A DNA stretch of 63,978 nt, counting the filler, from Licmophora abbreviata (taxonomy: Eukaryota): the NCBI GenBank assembly GCA_900291995.1. It is 10 parts of 10 records of this genome, joined end to end, with 100 filler letters (N's around TTAATTAATTAA, not from the genome) between each part and the next. Parts side by side here need not be neighbours in the genome. Positions count along the whole stretch, not along the records: positions 38,265 to 45,776 come from OLMU01005264.1; positions 45,877 to 47,738 come from OLMU01005265.1; positions 47,839 to 51,867 come from OLMU01005266.1; 7 more parts are not named here. One strand, given 5' to 3'. Shown in pieces: positions 30,392 to 49,695 of this stretch (the stretch's first letter is position 1; the number at the start of each line of letters is the position of its first letter). The position numbers were made by a program, and so were the translations under genes. The notes beneath the pieces are model-generated. The model worked only from the letters and a program-made list of their open reading frames with translations. It did not search any database and was not told the DNA's origin.

Positions 30392-30768
30392 TGTTAATCT
30401 GAAGTACCAGCGGAGCGAGGAAATGCAACATGATCGATGCGCAACAATCAACAATCAACAATGCGCCCTCCATGAGGCCTGATGAGGGTCGGTCTTATCG
30501 AGTGCGAAGCTTCGCATTCTTCGTACAAATGACGTCATTCTCAGCGCGCGAAGAATTTTCCTTTATCTTCGCACCCTTGGCACACAACCAACAGTCGAGC
30601 TGCTCTGCCGTTTCTGGCCTCTTTGTATCTTCCTTGTTCGTCCCTTGATNNNNNNNNNNNNNNNNNNNNNNNNNNNNNNNNNNNNNNNNNNNNTTAATTA
30701 ATTAANNNNNNNNNNNNNNNNNNNNNNNNNNNNNNNNNNNNNNNNNNNNCCCAAAGGAAAAAGCCACC

Positions 30769-31608
30769 GTGAAAGCACAAGTGCTGGAAGCAGTCAAAGA
30801 ATTTACATCTTACCTACGCGAGTTCCCTACGGAAAGGAACAAGATCCGCAGAGAAGGGACCGAGCATATATTCACGCCAGGCGCCAAGGACGACAGGGTG
30901 TACACAGAAAAGGACTTTCCGCTGATGCAGGGCCTGACAACCATCTTTGGAAATCCACAATCTAGTGAAAACGAAAAACTTCGCCAGCAACCAAAGACAA
31001 TGTCGAAGAGTTACCAGACACCGGCAAAACAGCAACACCAGGACGACAGCTTGACCAAGACACTTTCGTACGCTCACGCCGCTGGAAGCACAGTTGTCAC
31101 ACCCTCATCAATCACGTCACCCGGCAATACCGTATTGGAAGAACTGACGACCAAGCTGACAAAGATGAATGAGGAGTCTAGCGCCAAAATCAAAGCATTA
31201 GAAACGAAGTTTTTCACAGAATTGCAAAAGGTACAGGAAGCCACAGCAACATTGCAACAAGAGTACAAAATGGAATCAGACGGTTGGAAACAGACAATGG
31301 AAACGGCTATGACAAACCAAGCCGCGATGATGGACCAACTCAGCGGCCAAATGTCACTTCTCCTTGATCAGATTTCTCCGAAAGCATTCTCCCCCGTCCG
31401 TCCACAGGGTAAGAAACCACGTAAGACGGCCACACCAGATAGGAGCCAGAACAGGTTCTCCCCCCTGACAGAGACAGACGAGATCATGTCGGAAGCCGAC
31501 AATACAAAAGACGACTACATCACCGACATCAACAAGCCAGTCCATCCCATGATCGACACCAGTGAGCCACCGCGCGACACCACGAGCCGCGGAGGCATCA
31601 CAAAATGA
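30769..31608 (+). CDS. LINE ORF1, C-terminal part (coiled-coil region); 5' end lost in the gap
   Basis: Open frame directly upstream of ORF2 with a heptad-like region (LEELTTKLTKMNEESSAKIKALETKF..LQQEY), an SYA motif and QNRFSPL; same compositional bias as ORF2. Confidence 0.75.
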   Translation: MKAQVLEAVKEFTSYLREFPTERNKIRREGTEHIFTPGAKDDRVYTEKDFPLMQGLTTIFGNPQSSENEKLRQQPKTMSKSYQTPAKQQHQDDSLTKTLSYAHAAGSTVVTPSSITSPGNTVLEELTTKLTKMNEESSAKIKALETKFFTELQKVQEATATLQQEYKMESDGWKQTMETAMTNQAAMMDQLSGQMSLLLDQISPKAFSPVRPQGKKPRKTATPDRSQNRFSPLTETDEIMSEADNTKDDYITDINKPVHPMIDTSEPPRDTTSRGGITK

Positions 31609-34600
31609 CCCCTGGGAGCTTCAGACAACGACAAACCATCACGCATCATCGACCATTCACATTGCCACCAGAATTCACCCAGCATCATAACACCCAACAA
31701 GTACCCAATTTCCACACACCACCACTGACACACATCGACGAGATCAGCATATTTAATGACAACAACACCGACAACAACACCGACAGAATGCCTATCGTCC
31801 TCACTTCCCAAACAAAAACAACAAACACAACCAAGACAAACTACGACAGACGGAACACAAACCATGTGAGAGCACCGACACTGCAACACCGGATTCCATC
31901 GCACCGAAAACCCAACAAAGAACCGACCCAACAAGCGCCCAAGGCAACCCAAGCATTCAAGGACGACAGAATATACGGCGACACGTTGACTCAACCAAGA
32001 CCCAACAACACAATACGGATCGTTGTGCAGAACACCAACGGACTAAGGATTACTCACGGAGACCGCACGGACTTACAATACACTTTTGCCAGTCTCCAGG
32101 GCATCCAAGCGGACGTTTTTGGACTTACGGAAACCAATGTAGATTGGAAGAATCCAATGATAAGAGCCGACTATAGACAAATTGCAAACAAAGCATGGCA
32201 ACAGTCAAAATCGTCACTTTCGACAAGCAAGACGCGAGCCAAGCATGGCTACTATCTCCCAGGCGGAACCACCACCACAGCAACGGGGAAATGGAGCACA
32301 AGAACAGTCGCCACAGGATACGACGACATAGGCAGATGGAGCTACATTACAATGATGGGGCAGAAAGAGAGGCGAATCACGATTATCACAGCATATAGAG
32401 TATGCGAGCAACGGCCGCCGACACACCGACAGAAAAATACCAAACAACGAGCAACACAGGGAATGACGACGGCGTATACACAACAGTATATTCAACTGGT
32501 GGAGGATAGAGGCATGGAAGACCCCGACCCAAGAGAGGCCTTCGTACAAGACATTATTCAGTTTATCAAACAAAAAGAGCAACAAGACCACGGCATCATC
32601 CTGATGGGCGATCTAAACGAAGCACTGACGCCAGGCAACCACCGCGGAGCAAGCCGGATCCTCCAGGAATGCTCACTTATCAACCTCCTAGAACTTCGCC
32701 ACATGGAACCTACCCCGGCGACGTATATTCGAGGGTCCGCTACGATTGACCATATCCTTGGAAGCCCTGACATTGCGGACCACGTTATACGATCAGGTAT
32801 GCTACGATTTCACGAATGCATCTTTTCCGACCATAGGGCGCTGTACGTCGATATCAACCATGAGACCCTATTTCAAGGAAAACAGATGGAAGATCAAGTG
32901 GATAGAAACAATCGAAGACTCATCTCCAGCAACCCAACGGCAGTGACGAAATTTTTGAAAGTTACAGGACAATACTGGAAAGATCACCGTATAGCGGAAC
33001 GACAGGCCATACTACGGCACGACTCTACAACACTCTCTCTCACGGATTTAAAGAACAGACACTCCAGCATCGATCGGGACATTGGGCGCTCAATCCGAAT
33101 GGGAGAAAAACGTCTCGGCAGACGCCACCAAGGCAGCTGGTGGTCTCCAGCACTCACACGTGCAGCGAAAACAGTCAAATACTGGAAGATTCGGGTGTCA
33201 GAGGTTAAAAACAAACAGTCATCCCAACAGGCTAAAGAGAAAATAAAGAAGGAAGTGACCATTGAGGATACCAACGATAACGGATGGCAGTATCTGACAA
33301 AACAATTGAAAGAGGCATGGCAACATTGGAGACTGGCCAAGAATGAAGCCGCACAACTCAGAGACGATCACCTCACGGAACGGGCAAACGCTTACATAGC
33401 CAAAGGAAACATGACCGTCGCTCAGGCCGTTCAACATATAAGAAATGCAGAACATCGACAGGAGGCATTCCGCCGCATACGGACGACTTTGAAACCTTCC
33501 CAATCTGGTAACTTCGCATGGCTTGAGACCTTCAACACGCATACCAAACAGTGGGAGACATGCACCAACGGTGAGACAATACAAAACAAGATCCTGGAAC
33601 GGAACCTAAAGCACTTCCGACAAGCAAACGACTCGACCTTCGCGAACCCTACCATGGCGCACAGAGTAGGCCGATCAGGCCTCAGTCGCGCTGCAGACGA
33701 TATCCTACGCGGCCAATTTAGCACGTCGACACCGGCACAAACTTCAGCTCTACAGGCTTTTCTGAAAGCATTCCAAGCACCTCCCGAAATTTTAGACGAT
33801 TCCGCCATCGGTAAAACAACTATCTCTCCTCAGGAGTTTGCGACAGGGATAAGGCGTTGGCGCGAATCGACCAGCACTTCCCCATCAGGCCGACACCTCG
33901 GAATATACAAAACAATGATCAAAGACGAGACGATGCTACAAGTGCTGACAGACATGGGAAACCTCTGCTTTGAGAACGGATTCGCGGCAGAAAGATGGTT
34001 GGTTACAATACAATGTGTGCTGGAAAAAGATCAAGGCAGCCCACGACTCCATCGAGTCCGCATCATACACCTCCTCGAAGCCGATATGAACCTGTTTCTA
34101 AAGATACATTGGTCAAGACGAATGATCACAAATGCGGAGCAACATGGCTGGCTGAACAATTCACAACATGGCGGACGACCAGGACATCTGGCTACGGATC
34201 CCACTCTCATACGACTCCTAAACTGTGATCTGAGTCGACTGACAGCAACTTCCTTAGCCCTGGCAGACAAGGACGCCATGGCGTGCTATGACCGGATGGT
34301 CAACTTCGTGATGTTCGTGGCAAGCAGAAGACTGGGCGTTCCCAACAAGGTAATTCAAACCTTTCATGACGTCCTCGCTAACATGACATACCACGTAAAA
34401 ACAGCACACGGCGTCTCGGCGAAGTCATATCAAGGAACAACCCAAAACCCCACACAAGGACCAGGACAAGGTTCAAGCAACGGGCCGGCACTCTGGACAG
34501 CGACATCTTCCCCCATGCTGGAGGCGCTTACACAGGAGACCCTAGGTATGAAATGGCAGGACCCCACTCAGTCGATCTCGTTGACGACACATGCCATGAT

Positions 34601-37600
34601 GTTTATCGATGATCAGAATTCAGGAGTGAACGCAAACCATCAAACAATTCAACAACAATACGATCCAACCCAAGCGCTTATCAACCAGATGGAACATACA
34701 GTTGAAACATGGAATGAGCTCCTATGGCATTCAGGAGGGGCATTGAATCCCATCAAATGCTACTGGTTTCTACTGACGTATGAACTTAACGGCAAGAACC
34801 TCCCACAATTGACGACAGAGGATACACACCAAAGGACACTCACTATTACCGACTACCAGCAGGACCAACCGGTGCAGATACAGAGGATCAAGACACAGGA
34901 CGCTAGACGCACACTAGGAATTCGGGTTACAGGGGACGGCAAATACGGCGCACAACACCAATTTCTAAAGGAAAAGGCTGAGATTATGGCAAAACGTCTC
35001 TTACGATCAGGCTTATCACGGGCGGCGGCATGGACAGCGTACCTGGCGGTCTACCTTCCGGCTATGCAATTCTCACTTTCGGTGGTACCATTGACAGCAA
35101 CACAGGCTAACGAAATACAGATGAAAGCGACCGCGGCATTTCTGGCGAAGACAGGTACCAACCGGAACATGCCACGCGCAGTGGTATACGGACCCGTGGA
35201 GTCGACTGGTTTAGGCTTTCGAGACCTATACGTCGAATCCGGAATCCTACGAATCATGTACTACATCGGACATATGCGGAAAAGAACGGAGATCGCAACG
35301 CTCTTGGAGATTCAACGTCGAACCATACAACTGTGCGCAGGCGTCGGCTTCGACATACTACAAGACACTTCCACCAAGATCCATTATATCGACCAAACGA
35401 ACTGGCTGATGCAACTGCGGAACTTCCTCGGTGATCACGACCTTAGTTTGCACCACACCTCCACCTGGAATATACAAAGGCAACGGGAAGGCGACAAGTT
35501 CTTGATGGACATCTTCCGCCATGAGAAATACAGGAAAACGGACATGACACACCTCAACTACGTACGACTCCACCTGAAGGTATGTATGCTCTCTGACATT
35601 ACAACAGGCGACGGAAAATCACTGGTCGACGCATTCATTGACGGTAAACAAAGCGAACATTGGAGATCCAAAATACAATGGCCCAGATATGAATGGTCTC
35701 CCAGTGCACACCAACTGAAATTATGGAGTCGTGCCCTCGGACACCTGACACGTTCCAGAAGCGACCATACTCTAGTTGAACCACTAGGAAGATGGCTACC
35801 AGTGGAACGCCACCTCTCATGGAATGCACAGTACGACCATCAAAGGGACAGCCTACAGTATACGACAAACGGACGACGACAAGCAATTCCGCGACTTGTT
35901 ACACGCACGAGGAACCGAGGCTTGAGCAATCTATTCTTCCGCCAGACGGACTCAGAAATCGAACATCTACCACATCCTACGACACCAACACCGATGACAC
36001 CAACCACGCGTCATCCAACTTCGAGACCAGGGATATTCAAGGCATCTACGGCACAACTCATGCCAACAAGACACTACCAGAAACCAACGACATTCAAACA
36101 ACATATCCGGACTCTCCCAAGTCCCATTGCCAGATGGATACAAAGCTTCGAAATTCCCAACCAAGACCACCTGGATCAACTTCTACGATCCAGGCACCCT
36201 TTATTTCTGGCCACAGACGGGTCCAATCTGTTCCCAAACGCTTCGTTTGCATTTAACATCGCCGACACCTCAGGACGGATATTAATACGAGGCTTTGGCC
36301 CTGTGGACGGCAACCCAGTCTTCATGTCATCGCTTCGACCAGAACTCTACGGCATAGGTAGCGGCTTGACCTTCATTGAACAATACTGCAAATTTCACGG
36401 AATCCCGACACAAGCAATCAGAATCAAGAACCTATCAGACAGCAAGGCAGCTATACAAAGATCATCAGTAGCGAACTCGCAACTCAGAAGTATCTTCGAT
36501 CACATGAATGAATTCCAAAGATCGAGAATCATCAGTGTTTCAAAGCTCACCATGCCAGAAGAGGACGTAGTATGCGAGATACGAGAGACACTGCTCCGAA
36601 TGCAACCTGACATTACATTCGAATGGATAAAAAGCCATCAGGACGACCTCACACCGACACAGAAGATGTCCGTAGAAGCACAACTCAACATAATGGCTGA
36701 CCACGACGCGGGCCAATACAGGAAATACAATCAGATCGGACATCGAAAGACACAGCCGGCTCTCCACTTTCCAGGCGCAGTTGTCAACCTCCGTATCTCA
36801 CACCGCATCGCCACAACGAAGATTCCGGCACAAATCCGACAACACATACGGGGAGCCATCATGGGCACATACATGCAGGAACGATACGACTGGTCGACCG
36901 CAACATGGAACACGATCGACTGGCAAACAATAGGACAATGCTTCAAACAGCTCACGCTCAACGAACGAGTGAACACGGCGAAAATGATACACGGCTGGAG
37001 AAACTCAGGAAAGCAGCGCCGCCGTATCGATCCCAATGCCACCGACCGATGCCCGTCATGTCACGCAAGGAACGAGACACCAATGCACATAATGAGTTGC
37101 CAAGCAGAAGAGAGAAAGACCAAAAGAGAAAAAGCCCAGAGAGAACATATCACGAGCACTCTGCTAGCAGGTGAGACGGCGCGACCGATTTACCACACTA
37201 TCACCACAGCGATTCAGTCTTGGACCACATCACCAAGTGACAGCCCTATTCCGATTCCAGAACCATCAACGGACGATCCCCTACAAGCAACACTCTCGTT
37301 AGCAATTGCTGAACAAAACATTATCGGCTGGGAAATGTTCATGCGAGGCATCATTTCCAAAGAATGGGCAGGAGCACAACGGATATACCTTCAGGATAGA
37401 TTCCCAACGACCGGATTACAGAAGCTCCTTACATGGCGACGCAAACTAATACGGGCGTTATGGCAATTCGGGGAACAAGAATGGCAAGCCAGAAACGACG
37501 ACCTACACGATGACGATGACTCCTCAACACGTCGAAAGAACAAAAGGATGATACAAATGTACTTCGGAATCCAAGAGGAGTACAGCGAACGCGATCGACA

Positions 37601-37946
37601 ACTTCTCTTCCACAATCAACAGGCACTCCTCGAAAACACCACACAACATCAACAGTCGTGGATCACAAATGCACAACGACTTCTCAGTGCAAGACAGGAA
37701 CTCCAATATCAGCAGACAGTTAAACAAGTTGACAACCGAACAAGCGACACAAAGGAAACAAACCACGCCAAAGAAGGGAAACAAAAGAGACGAAGACATA
37801 AGTCAGGACAAACAAACACGATGGATCGATACCTCATTCGACACCCAACACAACCGACACCGCACAGAACTACGATACCACGCCACGACACAGCAGAGGC
37901 ACAGCACAAGACAACAGAACACACGGAACAACCTCAATCACGATAA
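31605..37946 (+). CDS. LINE ORF2 polyprotein (2113 aa): APE endonuclease - reverse transcriptase - RNase H - CCHC zinc finger
   Basis: APE: QNTNGL, GLTETN, LMGDLNE, TIDHILGS, SDHRALYVD. RT: TSPSGRHLGIYK, RIIHLLEAD, QHGGRPG, DAMACYD, GPGQGS, FIDD, RTLGI. RNase H: LATDGS, RPELYG, SDSKAAI, WIKSHQD, NIMAD. Zinc finger: CPSC..ETPMHIMSC. Confidence 0.95.
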   Translation: MTPGSFRQRQTITHHRPFTLPPEFTQHHNTQQVPNFHTPPLTHIDEISIFNDNNTDNNTDRMPIVLTSQTKTTNTTKTNYDRRNTNHVRAPTLQHRIPSHRKPNKEPTQQAPKATQAFKDDRIYGDTLTQPRPNNTIRIVVQNTNGLRITHGDRTDLQYTFASLQGIQADVFGLTETNVDWKNPMIRADYRQIANKAWQQSKSSLSTSKTRAKHGYYLPGGTTTTATGKWSTRTVATGYDDIGRWSYITMMGQKERRITIITAYRVCEQRPPTHRQKNTKQRATQGMTTAYTQQYIQLVEDRGMEDPDPREAFVQDIIQFIKQKEQQDHGIILMGDLNEALTPGNHRGASRILQECSLINLLELRHMEPTPATYIRGSATIDHILGSPDIADHVIRSGMLRFHECIFSDHRALYVDINHETLFQGKQMEDQVDRNNRRLISSNPTAVTKFLKVTGQYWKDHRIAERQAILRHDSTTLSLTDLKNRHSSIDRDIGRSIRMGEKRLGRRHQGSWWSPALTRAAKTVKYWKIRVSEVKNKQSSQQAKEKIKKEVTIEDTNDNGWQYLTKQLKEAWQHWRLAKNEAAQLRDDHLTERANAYIAKGNMTVAQAVQHIRNAEHRQEAFRRIRTTLKPSQSGNFAWLETFNTHTKQWETCTNGETIQNKILERNLKHFRQANDSTFANPTMAHRVGRSGLSRAADDILRGQFSTSTPAQTSALQAFLKAFQAPPEILDDSAIGKTTISPQEFATGIRRWRESTSTSPSGRHLGIYKTMIKDETMLQVLTDMGNLCFENGFAAERWLVTIQCVLEKDQGSPRLHRVRIIHLLEADMNLFLKIHWSRRMITNAEQHGWLNNSQHGGRPGHLATDPTLIRLLNCDLSRLTATSLALADKDAMACYDRMVNFVMFVASRRLGVPNKVIQTFHDVLANMTYHVKTAHGVSAKSYQGTTQNPTQGPGQGSSNGPALWTATSSPMLEALTQETLGMKWQDPTQSISLTTHAMMFIDDQNSGVNANHQTIQQQYDPTQALINQMEHTVETWNELLWHSGGALNPIKCYWFLLTYELNGKNLPQLTTEDTHQRTLTITDYQQDQPVQIQRIKTQDARRTLGIRVTGDGKYGAQHQFLKEKAEIMAKRLLRSGLSRAAAWTAYLAVYLPAMQFSLSVVPLTATQANEIQMKATAAFLAKTGTNRNMPRAVVYGPVESTGLGFRDLYVESGILRIMYYIGHMRKRTEIATLLEIQRRTIQLCAGVGFDILQDTSTKIHYIDQTNWLMQLRNFLGDHDLSLHHTSTWNIQRQREGDKFLMDIFRHEKYRKTDMTHLNYVRLHLKVCMLSDITTGDGKSLVDAFIDGKQSEHWRSKIQWPRYEWSPSAHQLKLWSRALGHLTRSRSDHTLVEPLGRWLPVERHLSWNAQYDHQRDSLQYTTNGRRQAIPRLVTRTRNRGLSNLFFRQTDSEIEHLPHPTTPTPMTPTTRHPTSRPGIFKASTAQLMPTRHYQKPTTFKQHIRTLPSPIARWIQSFEIPNQDHLDQLLRSRHPLFLATDGSNLFPNASFAFNIADTSGRILIRGFGPVDGNPVFMSSLRPELYGIGSGLTFIEQYCKFHGIPTQAIRIKNLSDSKAAIQRSSVANSQLRSIFDHMNEFQRSRIISVSKLTMPEEDVVCEIRETLLRMQPDITFEWIKSHQDDLTPTQKMSVEAQLNIMADHDAGQYRKYNQIGHRKTQPALHFPGAVVNLRISHRIATTKIPAQIRQHIRGAIMGTYMQERYDWSTATWNTIDWQTIGQCFKQLTLNERVNTAKMIHGWRNSGKQRRRIDPNATDRCPSCHARNETPMHIMSCQAEERKTKREKAQREHITSTLLAGETARPIYHTITTAIQSWTTSPSDSPIPIPEPSTDDPLQATLSLAIAEQNIIGWEMFMRGIISKEWAGAQRIYLQDRFPTTGLQKLLTWRRKLIRALWQFGEQEWQARNDDLHDDDDSSTRRKNKRMIQMYFGIQEEYSERDRQLLFHNQQALLENTTQHQQSWITNAQRLLSARQELQYQQTVKQVDNRTSDTKETNHAKEGKQKRRRHKSGQTNTMDRYLIRHPTQPTPHRTTIPRHDTAEAQHKTTEHTEQPQSR

Positions 37947-44590: not shown

Positions 44591-45670
44591 CTAGTGCTCT
44601 GGTATAAAGAGAACCAATATTCCAAAGAGGGCGGCCATCATGACTCCAACGAACGGGGATCGGTCCGAGCCTGTCGCACTAGTAGGGCCCAATGTAGGAG
44701 GAAGCGAAGGTTCTGTGGGAACACCCGGTCCGTCCGTAGATCCCATGAGAGTCGGGTTCTGACTGGGCGGAGACGACGGTTGGATCGTCGGTGGGACCGT
44801 TGGAGGAAGGTTCAAGCATGTGCCATCACAGTCTTGAATACTGCAGGGGTCTTCGTCATCCAGCAAAGCCGAGCAGTCGAATGCGATAGTACCGTTGCAA
44901 ATACTGCAGCTGCTACAGCGAGGGCTATCCTCCGTAACGTCGTCTACGGTGTCGGACTGAATAACTTCACAGCCACCTGAACAGTCAGAGAGCGACCCAA
45001 ACACGGGACAGCCAGAGTACTGTACAACGAATCCCTCCAGAAAGTCAGGATCTTCCACCAGACAGTCCTGAGATCCTTCTCCTCCCTCAGGGGTACAGGC
45101 GACTGTCAGATTACTCGCATTGACGCAGTCTCCCTCGCAGTCAGTTGTCGCACACTCGTTTGCATCGACATAGAGATTCGAGCAGTCAAAACCGACAAGC
45201 GAAGGGCAAATCTCGCAGTCATTGCAAGTGGCGGTCTCGTTTGTGATGTCTTCATAGACAGTAGCCGCGTAAACTTCACAGCTCGTGCAATCTGCCGTGG
45301 AGGTAGCTGTGGCTGGGCAGCGAAAGACTTGAACCAGTCCCGGGTCAGGGCGACCCTCCAGCCAGCACATAATAAATCCGTCTTCAGCCATTAGACATTC
45401 TGCTTGTTGAAGACGCCGGTTTCCCGATTCATCGACAAAGCTACCGGACGCAGCGATGTCGGCGAAGAAGCTGGCCTTCTTCCGGGCTTGCTTCTCCGTC
45501 GCTTCGGCGCCAGCACTGATTTCGGTGTCTGAATGTAGGCCAACCGGCGGGTTTCCAGTTTCGGAAAGATCGTTTGCCCTTCTGACTGCGTTCTCGTCTA
45601 CCCTCGCTTCAAAACCCAGCACAGCATGTCCCATGAGGACACATACGGCAAGGATGGTCGTACAATGCAT
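44591..45670 (-). CDS. Secreted, probably GPI/TM-anchored acidic Cys-rich protein with two 12-Cys domains and a Pro/Thr stalk (paralog A)
   Basis: Signal peptide MHCTTILAVCVLMGHAVLG, RRLQ, two ~90-aa 12-Cys repeats, PT/PS linker and a hydrophobic C-terminus. Confidence 0.85.
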   Translation of the reverse strand: MHCTTILAVCVLMGHAVLGFEARVDENAVRRANDLSETGNPPVGLHSDTEISAGAEATEKQARKKASFFADIAASGSFVDESGNRRLQQAECLMAEDGFIMCWLEGRPDPGLVQVFRCPATATSTADCTSCEVYAATVYEDITNETATCNDCEICPSLVGFDCSNLYVDANECATTDCEGDCVNASNLTVACTPEGGEGSQDCLVEDPDFLEGFVVQYSGCPVFGSLSDCSGGCEVIQSDTVDDVTEDSPRCSSCSICNGTIAFDCSALLDDEDPCSIQDCDGTCLNLPPTVPPTIQPSSPPSQNPTLMGSTDGPGVPTEPSLPPTLGPTSATGSDRSPFVGVMMAALFGILVLFIPEH

Positions 45671-46302
45671 CGTTCGTGGTGGATTTTCCCTCTCCAAGGG
45701 TGAGATAATGACCGAGGTCGTGTCAAACAATGACAAATCAATGGGCCAATGGATTTGATTCATTCACGTTGATGAANNNNNNNNNNNNNNNNNNNNNNNN
45801 NNNNNNNNNNNNNNNNNNNNTTAATTAATTAANNNNNNNNNNNNNNNNNNNNNNNNNNNNNNNNNNNNNNNNNNNNTTGATCCAAATTGGCGCGCGCCAG
45901 GCACCCCATTGATAAATTTCATTTGTATATACACACGAATACATTCGATTTAAAGGTCGGTGGCATGTTTCGGTTGCAAATTCTCAAATTTGCAAATTTG
46001 CAAATTTCAAATTTCGATTTGCTCGACAAGGTGCACATCGCGTCTCCGGTGGTCTACCGGTACGATATGAGTATTCGTACCAGGAATGATATCATCAACC
46101 TCTACTCCGAGTAGACGACATCCCGGTATAGACCCCAGTGAAGTCTCACGATTTAAATTGTGCTTCAGATTCTTTCGTAGGTCTCTATATGAGTCTATAA
46201 GAACGAATCGTCTTAGTTTATACATCTAACCGTGCCAGGTAGGGTATCTCTGTGCTCTGAACCAACATCATCGCAAAGCTTCACTCCTCCCGTTCTCGCT
46301 CG

Positions 46303-46698
46303 TCACTGGCGCCAAAGCCACTGGATTCGTTTGTAATAACTCACGTAATGTAAGATCGCTCCTCCCGCGAACAAAACACCTATCGGCATGTTCCATGCAT
46401 GTAGGGCGTACCCACCGAAACCCAGAATTCCAAGCTCCAGAGCCAATCGTGTCATACCGCTGACGACAACAGGAGCTCCACCACCACGCGAGGGATCATT
46501 CGGGACGTTGAATACTACCCATGCACACGTGGATAGTAGAGGAAGGCCTATTCCAAGGACTGGTTTTGACCATGTTGTTTGAAACGCCGTCCAGCCAAAC
46601 TGTCCGATTCCGATTAAACTGGCGAGTTCCAGACTGAACCTCAAGGCGCCATTCCAGATCGACATCGCGGGAGGCTCCTCTCCACCACCTGAATCCAT
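46303..46698 (-). CDS. YrdB/DUF2568-like small membrane protein
   Basis: LRFSLELASL..GW, GIGLPLL..AWVVFNVP.DPSR.G.APV and RLALELGILG match the bacterial YrdB pattern; intronless. Confidence 0.75.
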   Translation of the reverse strand: MDSGGGEEPPAMSIWNGALRFSLELASLIGIGQFGWTAFQTTWSKPVLGIGLPLLSTCAWVVFNVPNDPSRGGGAPVVVSGMTRLALELGILGFGGYALHAWNMPIGVLFAGGAILHYVSYYKRIQWLWRQ

Positions 46699-47443
46699 GC
46701 TGGTTTTTCGGGGATAGCGACTGAACGCAGCTGTTTTGCTTCTCTCGTGGAGTCTTTCTGAGACGAGATGCGGTCGTTGTGTTGTTCGATGCGGCCGAAT
46801 TCTGCGGGTGTCTCGATAAGCTGCAACTGACCTTGTGTGGAGTCGGTCGAAGATATCCCCGGTCGTTGAATCTAACAGAAGCGGGTGTGCAGCAAGGGTG
46901 GCTCTGCTGCCGCAATGTAAGAAACCTACCAAGCTTCTCGCGACAGCTTTCTTCCCACGACGGCGCATCCTAATCCATATCGTACAACAACTTTTTTTAA
47001 CGCTGTGTACAGGTGCCGTGTCGATGATGACTTGTCGATCGAAATAATGTTGACAAGAACGGCGGCGAAAGCGACTTCCAACCGACTTGACTCACTCGAC
47101 TCGGTGCCGTCGAACGCATCTTGTGAATTTGTGATGATGTTGTGAAAAAATTGAACACACTGAAGGTGACCTGACATCGAACATCGCACGCCGCCGCTGG
47201 AGCGTGGTTAAAGTCTTACTTTCTGTCTGATGCAGTCTACGCACCTGATGATGCGCTCAAGTCAGATTCTGGATAAACTGGAGTTCAAGAGTAGCAGCAG
47301 AATCCAGGAACGCGTACGATATATGATACTTCAACCCTATCATTGTAGAATATCGTTCAAACTCAACTCAAAGATAAAACAAGTTTCTACATCGGGCTTC
47401 CTAAATGACTAACGGTTTGAACATGGGATTGCAACCCTCATCA

Positions 47444-48981
47444 TCAGGCGAAGAACGTAAACCAACCAAGGATCAACGTGGGGATCAACGCAAGACTGTT
47501 GGCAGCGGCACCAGACGAGGGAGACGATCCAGGGTTCGGGAAGAGTGGATCTGAGGAAGTCGGCGGCGCCGGTTCGCTGACAGGAGGCTGCTGGGTTGGC
47601 GGCGTCTGTGTCGGGAAAGGCGTTGGGAGCGGATTCGGTGCGGTGACAGGAGCCTGTGTCGGGAAAGGCGTCGGGAACGGAGTAGGCCTGGGCGTCGGGA
47701 ACGGAGTAGGTGCGGTGACAGGAGCCTGTGTCGGGAAANNNNNNNNNNNNNNNNNNNNNNNNNNNNNNNNNNNNNNNNNNNNTTAATTAATTAANNNNNN
47801 NNNNNNNNNNNNNNNNNNNNNNNNNNNNNNNNNNNNNNGGGCGTCGGGAACGGAGTAGGCCTGGGCGTCGGAGGCGGACCGGGCGGGTCCGCGGTGAAGC
47901 AGTTACCTCCACAGTCGATGTTGGCACACTCTCCCTGCGCCACGTTGGAGCATTCCCAGGCGACGCTCGAGCTGCAGACGGTACAGCTGCTGCAGATCGG
48001 ATCCCCACTTGTGAGGGTGTCAGGGCTGTCTGTTACAACAACATCACAACCTAGGCAGTCAAGAGTCGTCGTCGCTGAGCTGGGACAGTAGAAGACCATT
48101 ACAAATCCGTCCCCGGGGACGTCGTCTAGAAAACACACAAGATCGGTACCGGGTGGTCCATCGGTGGACTGGAAGCACTCGGCTGTGTTGCCACTAGGTG
48201 TAGGTGCAGGCGCCGTTGTCGGACGCGGTGTAGGTGCAGGGGCCGTTGTCGGACGCGGTGTCGGTGGAGGTGGCTGCGGACTTCCGGTACAACCCGAACA
48301 CGAAGCTCTGGCACAATCTCCTGTGGCAATGTTTGAGCAGTCATACGCAATCGAGCTGCTGCAGACGGTACAGGAGTTACACTGTGGATCGTTGCTGCTG
48401 AACGAGGCGATGCTATCACTCGCGACAACAATACAGCCTCCGCACTGAAGAACGCTGGTGGCGCTTTCAGGGCAGGCAAAGAAGATGGTGACAAACCCGG
48501 GGCCTGGCACGTCGTCGACGGCACAGGCAATACTTCCATCGTCAAGCCTGAAGCACTCTGCTTGGAGACGGCGGCTGTGGTCATTGTCGACTGGACCGAG
48601 GAGGGCCTTGAGATCGACGGGTCCGGCGATGTTGGCAAGGAAGCCCTTGTCCCACTTGTATGCAGTCTTGCGGCGTCCACGAACACCTCCGCCATCTTCC
48701 GACTCGTCTGGGTGGAGCGCGTTCTCCAGAGCTGCGATCACCTCGGGATCGGTTTCCTTTGTGAGGAGGCCGGCTCCAGTCTGCTTGGCAGACACCCTGA
48801 GACTGGTAAGGTCGGTGGCGTTCCCAATGGCGAAGCCACCCGTAACAGAGAGATGCGTGCCCTTGAGACTGATGGTGCCGACAGGAGAAGTAATCGGGAT
48901 GGCTCCCAGGTCAGGCGCGGTCATCTCAACGGCCGAAGTGACACTGAGAGAGGCAAGAAGGACAGTGAAGGTGCGCATCAT
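47444..48981 (-). CDS. Secreted, probably GPI-anchored acidic Cys-rich protein with two 12-Cys domains and a Pro/Thr stalk (paralog B); spans the gap at 47739-47838
   Basis: Signal peptide MMRTFTVLLASLSVTSA, RRLQAEC and two 12-Cys repeats. PTPRPTPFPT repeats occur on both sides of the gap. The C-terminus PSSGAAANSLALIPTLILGWFTFFA* was read by hand, with the stop at 47444. Confidence 0.85.
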
Positions 48982-49695
48982 GGCAAAGGTGTTGTCTGAA
49001 TGTGTGAGATGCAATCTAACCTTGCAAATATTGTGTGAACCTACCCATGGCCCCGCACATAGCAACAAGACTAGAGCGCCATTCCGCGAACCACAAGAGT
49101 CTTGGGTGGATCTTGCCAAGATCAAAGATCACGGATACCAGTATGACTCACTCGACTCGACTCACTCACTTATTCCAAGCACGACTGGGCCAGCCTGACT
49201 CGAACTAGTCGGACGGTGCCTTCGAGGCAAAGAAGCCTGTCACCACAAAGGCCTGAACCTGAGTTGCTCGCCCTCGTTGCGGCCAAGAACAAAAGTGAGT
49301 TGCTAGTGTTCGTACTGCATAAACACACTTTGGGGGTTTAGCGCCAAGTTCAAAGTGCTGGTGAAGTGTATTCCTCTTTTACAGAACTATGTGTGCCCTG
49401 CGACCGTCCTCCCCCCGTCATGCTTCCGTTTCGGCGTGCCCGGCGGTCGAGCTGGTCGGGTTGGCGCCCGTGCGCGCTCTCTTATACTGGGTAGTGCTGT
49501 AGCGTCCTCCAGTGTTGAAGGTTCGATACTATACGACGTTTGAACGTGTCCGTTGTGATGTTGTGATGACCTGCGAAGACGACGAGCACTGCAGCCAGGA
49601 CTGCAACGCTTGATGATAGGCTGCCGTAGTCTAGCAAACCTGCCCCCCGTTTGTACCACTGCCCCCCGTTAAACTTGATCCAGCCCCCAGAAACG

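What the first reader, a model, noticed from the sequence alone, without database searches (positions are those of the whole stretch)
44591..48981. Paralog pair of secreted, probably GPI-anchored proteins built from an unrecognised 12-Cys acidic domain
Seen in sequence: both genes have signal peptide - propeptide - RRLQ - two ~90-aa domains - Pro/Thr stalk - small-residue site plus hydrophobic tail. All four domains share 12 Cys with the same pattern: C..C, [FY]xCP, CxxC, CxxCxxC, [FYW][DE]CS, C, CxGxC. They are strongly acidic. Established: RxL sites mark propeptide processing in diatom cell-wall proteins such as silaffins, and frustulins use Ca-binding acidic Cys-rich repeats with Pro-rich linkers. 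Paralog A even contains CEGDC, but the 12-Cys spacing is not the frustulin ACR pattern. Inference: a possibly undescribed family of diatom cell-surface, frustule or adhesion proteins expanded by local duplication.
Basis: partly seen in the sequence, partly recalled or inferred. Interest (0 to 1): 0.72.

Follow-up and report, generated by a model that had tools for sequence, protein, structure and literature searches.

The report
Undescribed 12-cysteine diatom surface module
Two neighbouring diatom genes encode cell-surface proteins carrying a small, acidic, cysteine-stapled domain with no known family or structural match, which also turns up on membrane receptors and secreted proteases and so probably works as a general binding module.

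Summary
Both genes are real, intron-free, and carry two 89-94-aa domains with 12 Cys each; a metagenome contig bridges gene A's assembly gap in frame. The picture is wider than a pair. This diatom genome has 21 such domains in 12 genes at four loci, and 76 outside proteins match at E<=0.001 (3 set aside). The domain is a mobile extracellular module: it sits in signal-propeptide-RxL-stalk-GPI-like proteins, type II membrane proteins, type I membrane proteins with PDZ, and trypsin or subtilase fusions. No Pfam family passes its cut-off; the AlphaFold model is confident (pLDDT 93, nearly all beta) with no clear fold match. It is not a frustulin: the genome's true ACR domains are a separate family. 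A and B are old paralogs (34-40% per domain), not a recent duplication. New here: a conserved propeptide motif and three likely disulfide pairs. Best reading: a disulfide-stapled ligand-binding module displayed on mucin-like stalks. Ligand, location and expression are not shown.

The parts
44591..45670 (-). Gene B, 359 aa, intron-free (an in-frame ATG at 45763 would add 31 aa)
45614..45670 (-). B signal peptide (aa1-19, judged by hydropathy)
45446..45469 (-). B propeptide motif, degenerate form (FFADIAAS; fails the strict pattern)
45407..45418 (-). B RRLQ, predicted RxL processing site
   Evidence: RxL role from PMC4557024 passages
45125..45397 (-). B domain 1 (Cys1-Cys12, 91 aa)
44816..45097 (-). 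B domain 2 (94 aa)
44681..44815 (-). B Pro/Thr/Ser stalk
44594..44680 (-). B small-residue site, spacer and hydrophobic tail (GPI-like signal)
45777..45876 (.). Assembly gap between B and A, not bridged
46303..46968 (-). Intervening gene, DUF2568 (E 4.8e-16); not part of the family
47444..48981 (-). Gene A, at least 478 aa across a gap
48931..48981 (-). A signal peptide (aa1-17, judged by eye and hydropathy)
48619..48642 (-). A propeptide motif FLANIAGP (family pattern F-x-x-[DN]-[VI]-x-x-P)
48562..48573 (-). A RRLQ, predicted RxL processing site
48289..48555 (-). A domain 1 (89 aa)
48178..48288 (-). A Pro/Thr linker with a 30-bp repeat (2.5 copies, 48197-48270)
47899..48177 (-). A domain 2 (93 aa); AlphaFold model pLDDT 93
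47516..47898 (-). A Pro/Thr stalk with repeat tract and assembly gap (47739-47838); a much shorter in-frame form is in one contig of run X3
47444..47515 (-). A small-residue site (SGA), spacer, 16-residue hydrophobic tail and stop (GPI-like signal)

Best explanation
The 12-Cys unit is an independently folding, beta-sheet, disulfide-stapled, strongly acidic extracellular binding module. Genes A and B make precursors that enter the ER, are cut after RRL, receive a GPI anchor, and show two modules at the end of a probably glycosylated Pro/Thr stalk on the cell surface, where tandem copies bind a ligand with avidity: a cationic protein or polyamine, or a Ca2+-bridged glycan or neighbouring cell surface. 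The same module serves as ectodomain of membrane receptors and as targeting domain of secreted proteases. Shown: genes, domain boundaries, architectures, conserved positions. Inferred: secretion and disulfides (about 0.9), RxL cleavage (0.8), GPI anchoring (0.75), a binding or recognition role (0.55), the ligand class (under 0.3).
For: Every full-length member read has the domain on the non-cytosolic side: after a signal peptide, after a type II helix (ending at the C-terminus), or before a type I helix (heuristic flags in 86 proteins, many fragments: 40 signal-like, 9 type II, 39 RxL, 28 hydrophobic tail). Fusions to trypsin (P0047, P0071), subtilase (P0038; C6005, with a P-domain) and PDZ-bearing type I proteins (P0001, P0054). 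The type II N-terminal platform also leads to FG-GAP repeats in this genome (L063, E 2.7e-15, across a probable intron), so the ectodomain is exchangeable. 81 of 121 aligned domains keep all 12 Cys; losses come in pairs C8+C11, C10+C12, C1+C2. Fixed core spacings with variable loops (C5-C6 9-20, C8-C9 7-13). All 105 near-complete domains are net negative, median -13; conserved D before C9 (82%), N after (89%), D before C11 (67%). Model pLDDT 93, pTM 0.82. Gaa1 and a C13 peptidase are present.
Against: No ligand, location or expression data. Seven or more domains lose a single Cys. C8+C11 loss is one subfamily, so one event; C1+C2 is one domain; six Cys stay unassigned. C4-C7 has GATA-finger spacing in 29 of 81 domains and gives a weak GATA hit (E 0.018). 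AlphaFold did not dock the propeptide motif (pLDDT about 50). GPI and signal calls are heuristic. Acidity alone is common in diatom wall proteins and does not show binding.
Confidence: 0.55

Rival explanations
1. Structural coat protein that works like frustulins or pleuralins: acidic Cys-rich domains bridged by Ca2+ form a protective layer on the frustule or the organic layer beneath it, with no specific ligand.
For: Same design logic (presequence, RxL, acidic Cys-rich repeats, Pro-rich linkers; PMC4557024 and PMC4712521 passages); about 90-aa length as in pleuralin PSCD; P0071 carries this domain next to a CEGDCD motif.
Against: Membrane anchors of three kinds and protease fusions; only 1-3 copies per strict-family protein; no ACR motifs in 121 domains; the genome has separate ACR genes.
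Confidence: 0.2
2. Metal-binding module: C4-C7 (CxxC-x17-CxxC) binds Zn or another soft metal, or the acidic surface scavenges or detoxifies trace metals.
For: GATA-type spacing and a weak PDB sequence hit over exactly that stretch (E 0.018 and 0.12); C3-C7 are almost never lost; frustulins are reported to chelate cadmium (passage).
Against: Secretory location favours disulfides (established knowledge); C4-C5 spacing is 1 or 3 in 9 of 81, C6-C7 is 1 in 2 of 81, C5-C6 ranges 9-20; His is 0.4% of residues.
Confidence: 0.12
3. Inert, protease-resistant spacer or shield: a stable, lysine-poor domain used as filler or decoy against grazer and bacterial proteases.
For: No Lys in mature A or B; 51 of 105 domains have none; paralogs are highly diverged (mean 36%).
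Against: The domain is usually distal, at the tip of the stalk or the very C-terminus of type II proteins, where binding domains sit; conserved surface-type D/N positions; conserved propeptide motif.
Confidence: 0.1

Closest known systems
Frustulins (ACR domain)
   Same: Diatom, presequence with RxL, acidic Cys-rich repeats, Pro-rich linkers (passages).
   Different: ACR is about 50 aa with CQGDCD and VPGCSG motifs; this domain is about 92 aa, 12 Cys, has neither motif (0 of 121) and does not align to the genome's ACR domains (hhalign 0.4%); it has membrane anchors.
Pleuralins (PSCD domain)
   Same: About 90-aa Cys/Asp/Ser-rich repeated extracellular domain (passage).
   Different: Pro only 4-6% here; no N-terminal Pro-rich domain; direct comparison of Cys patterns was not possible.
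SiMat7-like / silicanin proteins
   Same: Signal peptide, RXL site, conserved Cys, C-terminal membrane segment (passage).
   Different: Eight conserved Cys per protein against 12 per repeated domain; the window genes end in the hydrophobic tail.
Craspedostauros adhesion proteins CaFAP1, CaTrailin3, CaTrailin4, Ca5609
   Same: PTS-rich stalks alternating with Cys-rich domains of no known family (passages).
   Different: CaTrailin3 repeats and DUF1/2 have six Cys; no CAA domain here. CaFAP1's Cys domain was not seen, so it is not excluded.
Accessory binding modules of animal surface proteins and proteases (CUB, SRCR, LDL-A, PAN); recalled
   Same: Works-like analogy only: small disulfide module shuffled between anchors, receptors and serine proteases.
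   Different: No sequence match in Pfam.

Membership tests
Frustulin | ACR domain of about 50 aa | tested here: not met
   89-94 aa from Cys1 to Cys12; definition from PMC4557024 passage
Frustulin | CQGDCD-type and VPGCSG-type hexapeptides | tested here: not met
   C[EQ]GDCD 0 of 121, VPGC 0 of 121 domains; definition from PMC4712521 passage
Frustulin | Profile similarity to ACR domains | tested here: not met
   hhalign probability 0.4% against 11 motif-centred stretches from 10 own-genome loci, one of them (L046) probably a chance match; reversed control 17.5%
Frustulin | Presequence with RxL and Pro-rich linkers | tested here: met
Frustulin | Ca2+ binding, EDTA-extractable wall location | not testable with these tools
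   needs experiment
Pleuralin (PSCD) | About 90-aa domain rich in P, S, C, D | tested here: inconclusive
   Length fits; S 4-16%, C 12-13%, D 9-14%, P 4-6%
Pleuralin (PSCD) | N-terminal proline-rich domain before the repeats | tested here: not met
Pleuralin (PSCD) | Sequence or fold match to a solved PSCD structure (existence recalled) | tested here: inconclusive
   Not listed; presence of the entry in the libraries was not confirmed
SiMat7-like / silicanin | Eight conserved cysteines | tested here: not met
   12 per domain, 24 per mature protein; definition
Silaffin-like | KxxK motifs, lysine clusters | tested here: not met
   0 Lys in mature A and B
EGF, furin-like, TNFR and other Pfam Cys-rich repeats | Score above the Pfam gathering cut-off | tested here: not met
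   Best: SLR1-BP 19.6 of 22.7 bits, DUF7247 14 of 27; TNFR_c6 E 0.47 in 2 of 18; no Cys-domain family in 76 relatives
GATA-type zinc finger | CxxC-x17-CxxC spacing | tested here: inconclusive
   17 in 29 of 81 domains, range 9-20; E 0.018; domain is acidic and extracellular
GPI-anchored proteins | Signal peptide, small-residue site, spacer, terminal hydrophobic tail | tested here: met
   Heuristic only; no trained predictor was run
GPI-anchored proteins | Host has the transamidase | tested here: met
   Gaa1 over cut-off; one Peptidase_C13 with motifs recalled as GPI8-like; other subunits not searched
CaFAP1-type mucin-like proteins | Same Cys-rich domain | not tested
   Sequence and Table S6 of the preprint not seen (passages only)

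The most novel reading that the evidence does not exclude
The domain is a diatom-invented fold that acts as the ligand-binding unit of a combinatorial surface-recognition system: variable loops on a fixed disulfide frame, mounted on GPI, type I (PDZ) and type II receptors and on proteases. The conserved propeptide motif keeps it inactive or sorts it until RxL cleavage, and the domain-bearing kexin-like protease on C6005 is the unidentified RxL-processing enzyme for these proteins.
Probability: 0.12. Interest if true: 0.8.

Novelty: new variant of a known kind. Interest (0 to 1): 0.5.

Why it matters
Diatom surfaces govern adhesion, colony formation, mating and contact with bacteria, yet most of their proteins have no annotated domains. 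This gives a sharply bounded module (boundaries fixed by type II members that end at Cys12), a ready profile, a confident model with no clear structural match, and small proteins that can be expressed. The mature proteins have no lysine and few arginines, so tryptic wall proteomics would tend to miss them (inference). The fusion to a subtilase with a P-domain gives a candidate for RxL processing, for which PMC5501833 names only candidates (passage). The limit: diatoms hold many undescribed Cys-rich modules, and no function is shown.

Tried and rejected
Pfam on the two genes, 18 domains and 76 relatives: no family for the domain. NCBIfam: 4 families with one member each of 18, best E 0.00095, judged CxxC noise. 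PHROGs: 0 of 18. DUF7247: 0 matches in the genome, and nothing in the controls either, so uninformative. PDB by sequence: a weak GATA finger and one unrelated chain. Fold searches: Foldseek 0 at E<=0.001 in PDB and in viral models; VIA-align best Z 3.8 (rmsd 4.0, 72 aligned) and 4.2 (rmsd 5.0, 63 aligned), 0 of 48,161 at Z>=5; this does not show a new fold. ESM Atlas: no usable hit twice. Word-based protein search: 0, 1 and 1 hits, limited by crowding. Pattern scans of metagenome, prokaryote and viral contigs: no confirmed relative; weak evidence. Propeptide-domain complex: no verdict, score 0.00, alignments not used. No RNA holder listed. 21 clusters looked up gave no accession or informative name and no NCBI or UniRef member, so the hosts of the relatives are unknown. 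Tree of 105 domains (16 of 121 dropped as short or under 10 Cys): quick tree only, 50 of 102 inner branches open; used only as a hint. Multi-SIT genes do not narrow the diatom class (PMC6114903 passages). One diverged contig in X2 (depth 2.2) shows 5 changed and 1 silent codon in domain A2: too little to test selection. Set aside from the 76 hits: P0059 and P0064 (unrelated repeats), P0074 (a different repeat type). Earlier scan notes: nothing in 4 look-ups. Ten paper searches and passages of eight papers showed no description of this domain; the library lacks most subscription journals and no supplements were read.
Full report
1. Observation. On the minus strand lie gene B (44591-45670, 359 aa) and gene A (47444-48981). 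Each has a hydrophobic N-terminus, a propeptide ending RRLQ, two domains of 89-94 aa with exactly 12 Cys, a Pro/Thr stalk and a terminal hydrophobic tail. The Cys pattern arose in 0 of 40,000 shuffles. Gene A crosses an N gap inside its stalk repeat. One X3 contig (depth 4.93, of 4 runs from at most 3 samples and 2 studies) aligns from 47864 and has a loose end equal to window 47574-47603. The tool does not say which 30 letters it prints; I read them as adjacent to the junction because a continuation into the repeat would have aligned further. That join is in frame, so domains and tail belong to one gene and the stalk seems to vary in length. The gap between A and B is not bridged.

2. Host. 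The genome has several silicon transporter genes (best 708 bits), its own CEGDCD/VPGC-type ACR genes (11 pattern matches, 0 in the reversed control), Gaa1 and a C13 peptidase. It is a diatom with at least part of the GPI machinery. The class was not determined.

3. Family in this genome. One domain as query found 20 matches; a second query found 16, all among them. With a frameshifted third domain on C1522/C1521 the count is 21 domains in 12 genes, a lower bound. Seven genes are signal-propeptide-RxL-GPI-like (A, B, five on C1519-22), four are type II membrane proteins (C4195-96), one is a subtilase with a P-domain and a hydrophobic tail (C6005). A's two domains are 57% identical; A against B is 34-40%, close to the mean of 36% over all pairs, with no significant DNA match. 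The pair is old, and each gene has equal or closer relatives elsewhere in the genome.

4. Family outside. The profile found 76 representatives at E<=0.001, 46 at 1e-10, 8 at 1e-30 among 1.84 billion. Three were set aside. Of 74 outside proteins aligned (73 plus P0001), 49 have a 12-of-12 domain and 64 have at least 10. Architectures add type I membrane proteins with PDZ (P0001, P0054), trypsin fusions (P0047, P0071) and a second subtilase fusion (P0038). The two trypsin-fused domains fall in different parts of a weak tree, a hint of repeated recruitment. The type II platform also leads to FG-GAP repeats in this genome. None of 21 clusters looked up had an NCBI or UniRef member. That the hosts are diatoms is an inference from RxL sites and the CEGDCD motif in P0071.

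5. Anatomy of the domain. Median spacing is C-9-C-16-C-9-C-2-C-17-C-2-C-2-C-8-C-7-C-4-C-3-C. Conserved besides Cys: G in the first hairpin (83%), P (88%), F-x-x-C-P, [YF]-D-C-S-N, D before C11, G after it. Joint losses suggest C8-C11 (one subfamily), C10-C12 (3 domains) and C1-C2 (1 domain); single losses also occur, and six Cys are unassigned. AlphaFold gives a nearly all-beta fold at pLDDT 93 from 18 sequences, and about 91 over the domain in a second model. No clear fold match was found. The C6-C9 core resembles another unannotated repeat that shares chains with a 10-Cys variant (hhalign 78%, 26 columns; reversed control 0.7%), a lead to a wider superfamily.

6. Propeptide. The motif F-x-x-[DN]-[VI]-x-x-P lies 22-102 residues before the first domain in 18 of 35 RxL members and 1 of 29 others (that one has a degenerate RxL site); shuffles give 0.05. 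The pattern was written after seeing the sequences and the members are related, so this shows conservation, not function. A narrower DNA pattern matched 3 places in 29 Mb, all the family genes it was drawn from, with 1 control match, so in that form it is not a general sorting tag. AlphaFold left the motif undocked (pLDDT about 50).

7. Mechanism. Most likely (0.55) a disulfide-stapled acidic binding module, released from its propeptide at RxL and shown in tandem on a GPI-anchored stalk. The basis is its constant extracellular and usually distal position, its exchange between anchors, receptors and proteases, and a fixed frame with variable loops. Rivals are a frustulin-like Ca2+-bridged coat (0.2), a metal-binding module (0.12) and an inert shield (0.1). 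RxL cleavage rests on published diatom precedent (PMC4557024, PMC5501833; passages). Glycosylation, anchoring, ligand and expression were not shown.

8. Comparison. It works like frustulins, pleuralins, SiMat7-like proteins and CaFAP1 in layout, but fails the defining tests for frustulins, silaffins and SiMat7-like proteins. Pleuralin and CaFAP1 could not be compared directly. Papers seen as passages only: PMC4557024, PMC5501833, PMC4712521, PMC3820600, PMC7335047, PMC6114903, 10.1101/2023.03.06.531300, 10.1101/2021.09.18.460806. Table S6 of the trail-protein preprint, not seen, bears on the CaFAP1 question.

9. Verdict. A real, apparently undescribed mobile domain of diatom surface proteins, within a known kind of protein. 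Interest 0.5: solid and testable, but without function, named hosts or expression.

Noticed in passing
G000:C6005:249-3528 (L035) and P0038: Subtilase with P-domain, a 12-Cys domain at the N-terminus, RxL sites and a hydrophobic tail; catalytic motifs look intact (recalled motifs). Candidate RxL-processing protease.
   Followed up: partly
window 31566-37946 (+) and 30750-31608: Uninterrupted 2126-aa ORF with an endonuclease domain (PF03372, E 8e-8) and a reverse-transcriptase-like region by eye, after a shorter ORF: looks like an intact non-LTR retrotransposon; strong AT skew.
   Followed up: partly
window 46303-46968 (-): DUF2568 gene between A and B; recalled as a mostly bacterial family, so possibly horizontally acquired. 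The true start is probably an internal Met.
   Followed up: no
window 30650-30749: The window goes from contig C5259 to C5263; C5260-C5262 (about 44 kb) are not in it. C5261 holds an ACR-repeat gene.
   Followed up: partly
G000:C845:1751-5794 (L039): Tandem or fused silicon transporter repeats (multi-SIT-like), three domains in a row.
   Followed up: partly
G000:C1522 near 100-160 and C4196:1183-1486: Third domain of one paralog has a frameshift (assembly error or pseudogene), and a decayed domain copy lies upstream of the C4196 gene.
   Followed up: partly
P0067, P0069, P0072, P0074: A second unannotated Cys repeat type, with no Pfam hit, shares the C..C..C...DC.N core and occurs in the same chains as a 10-Cys variant.
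   Followed up: partly
P0071: Trypsin, one 12-Cys domain and a CEGDCD (ACR-type) motif in one protein.
   Followed up: partly
P0010, P0016, P0043, P0044; P0026, P0039, P0040: Further small Cys modules at the C-terminus: knottin-like CC patterns, and a repeat ending in ACCxCGGG; no Pfam hit.
   Followed up: no
window 47980-48120 and 48988-49166: Run X2 holds contigs about 93% identical to the window beside identical ones: a diverged allele or close relative.
   Followed up: partly
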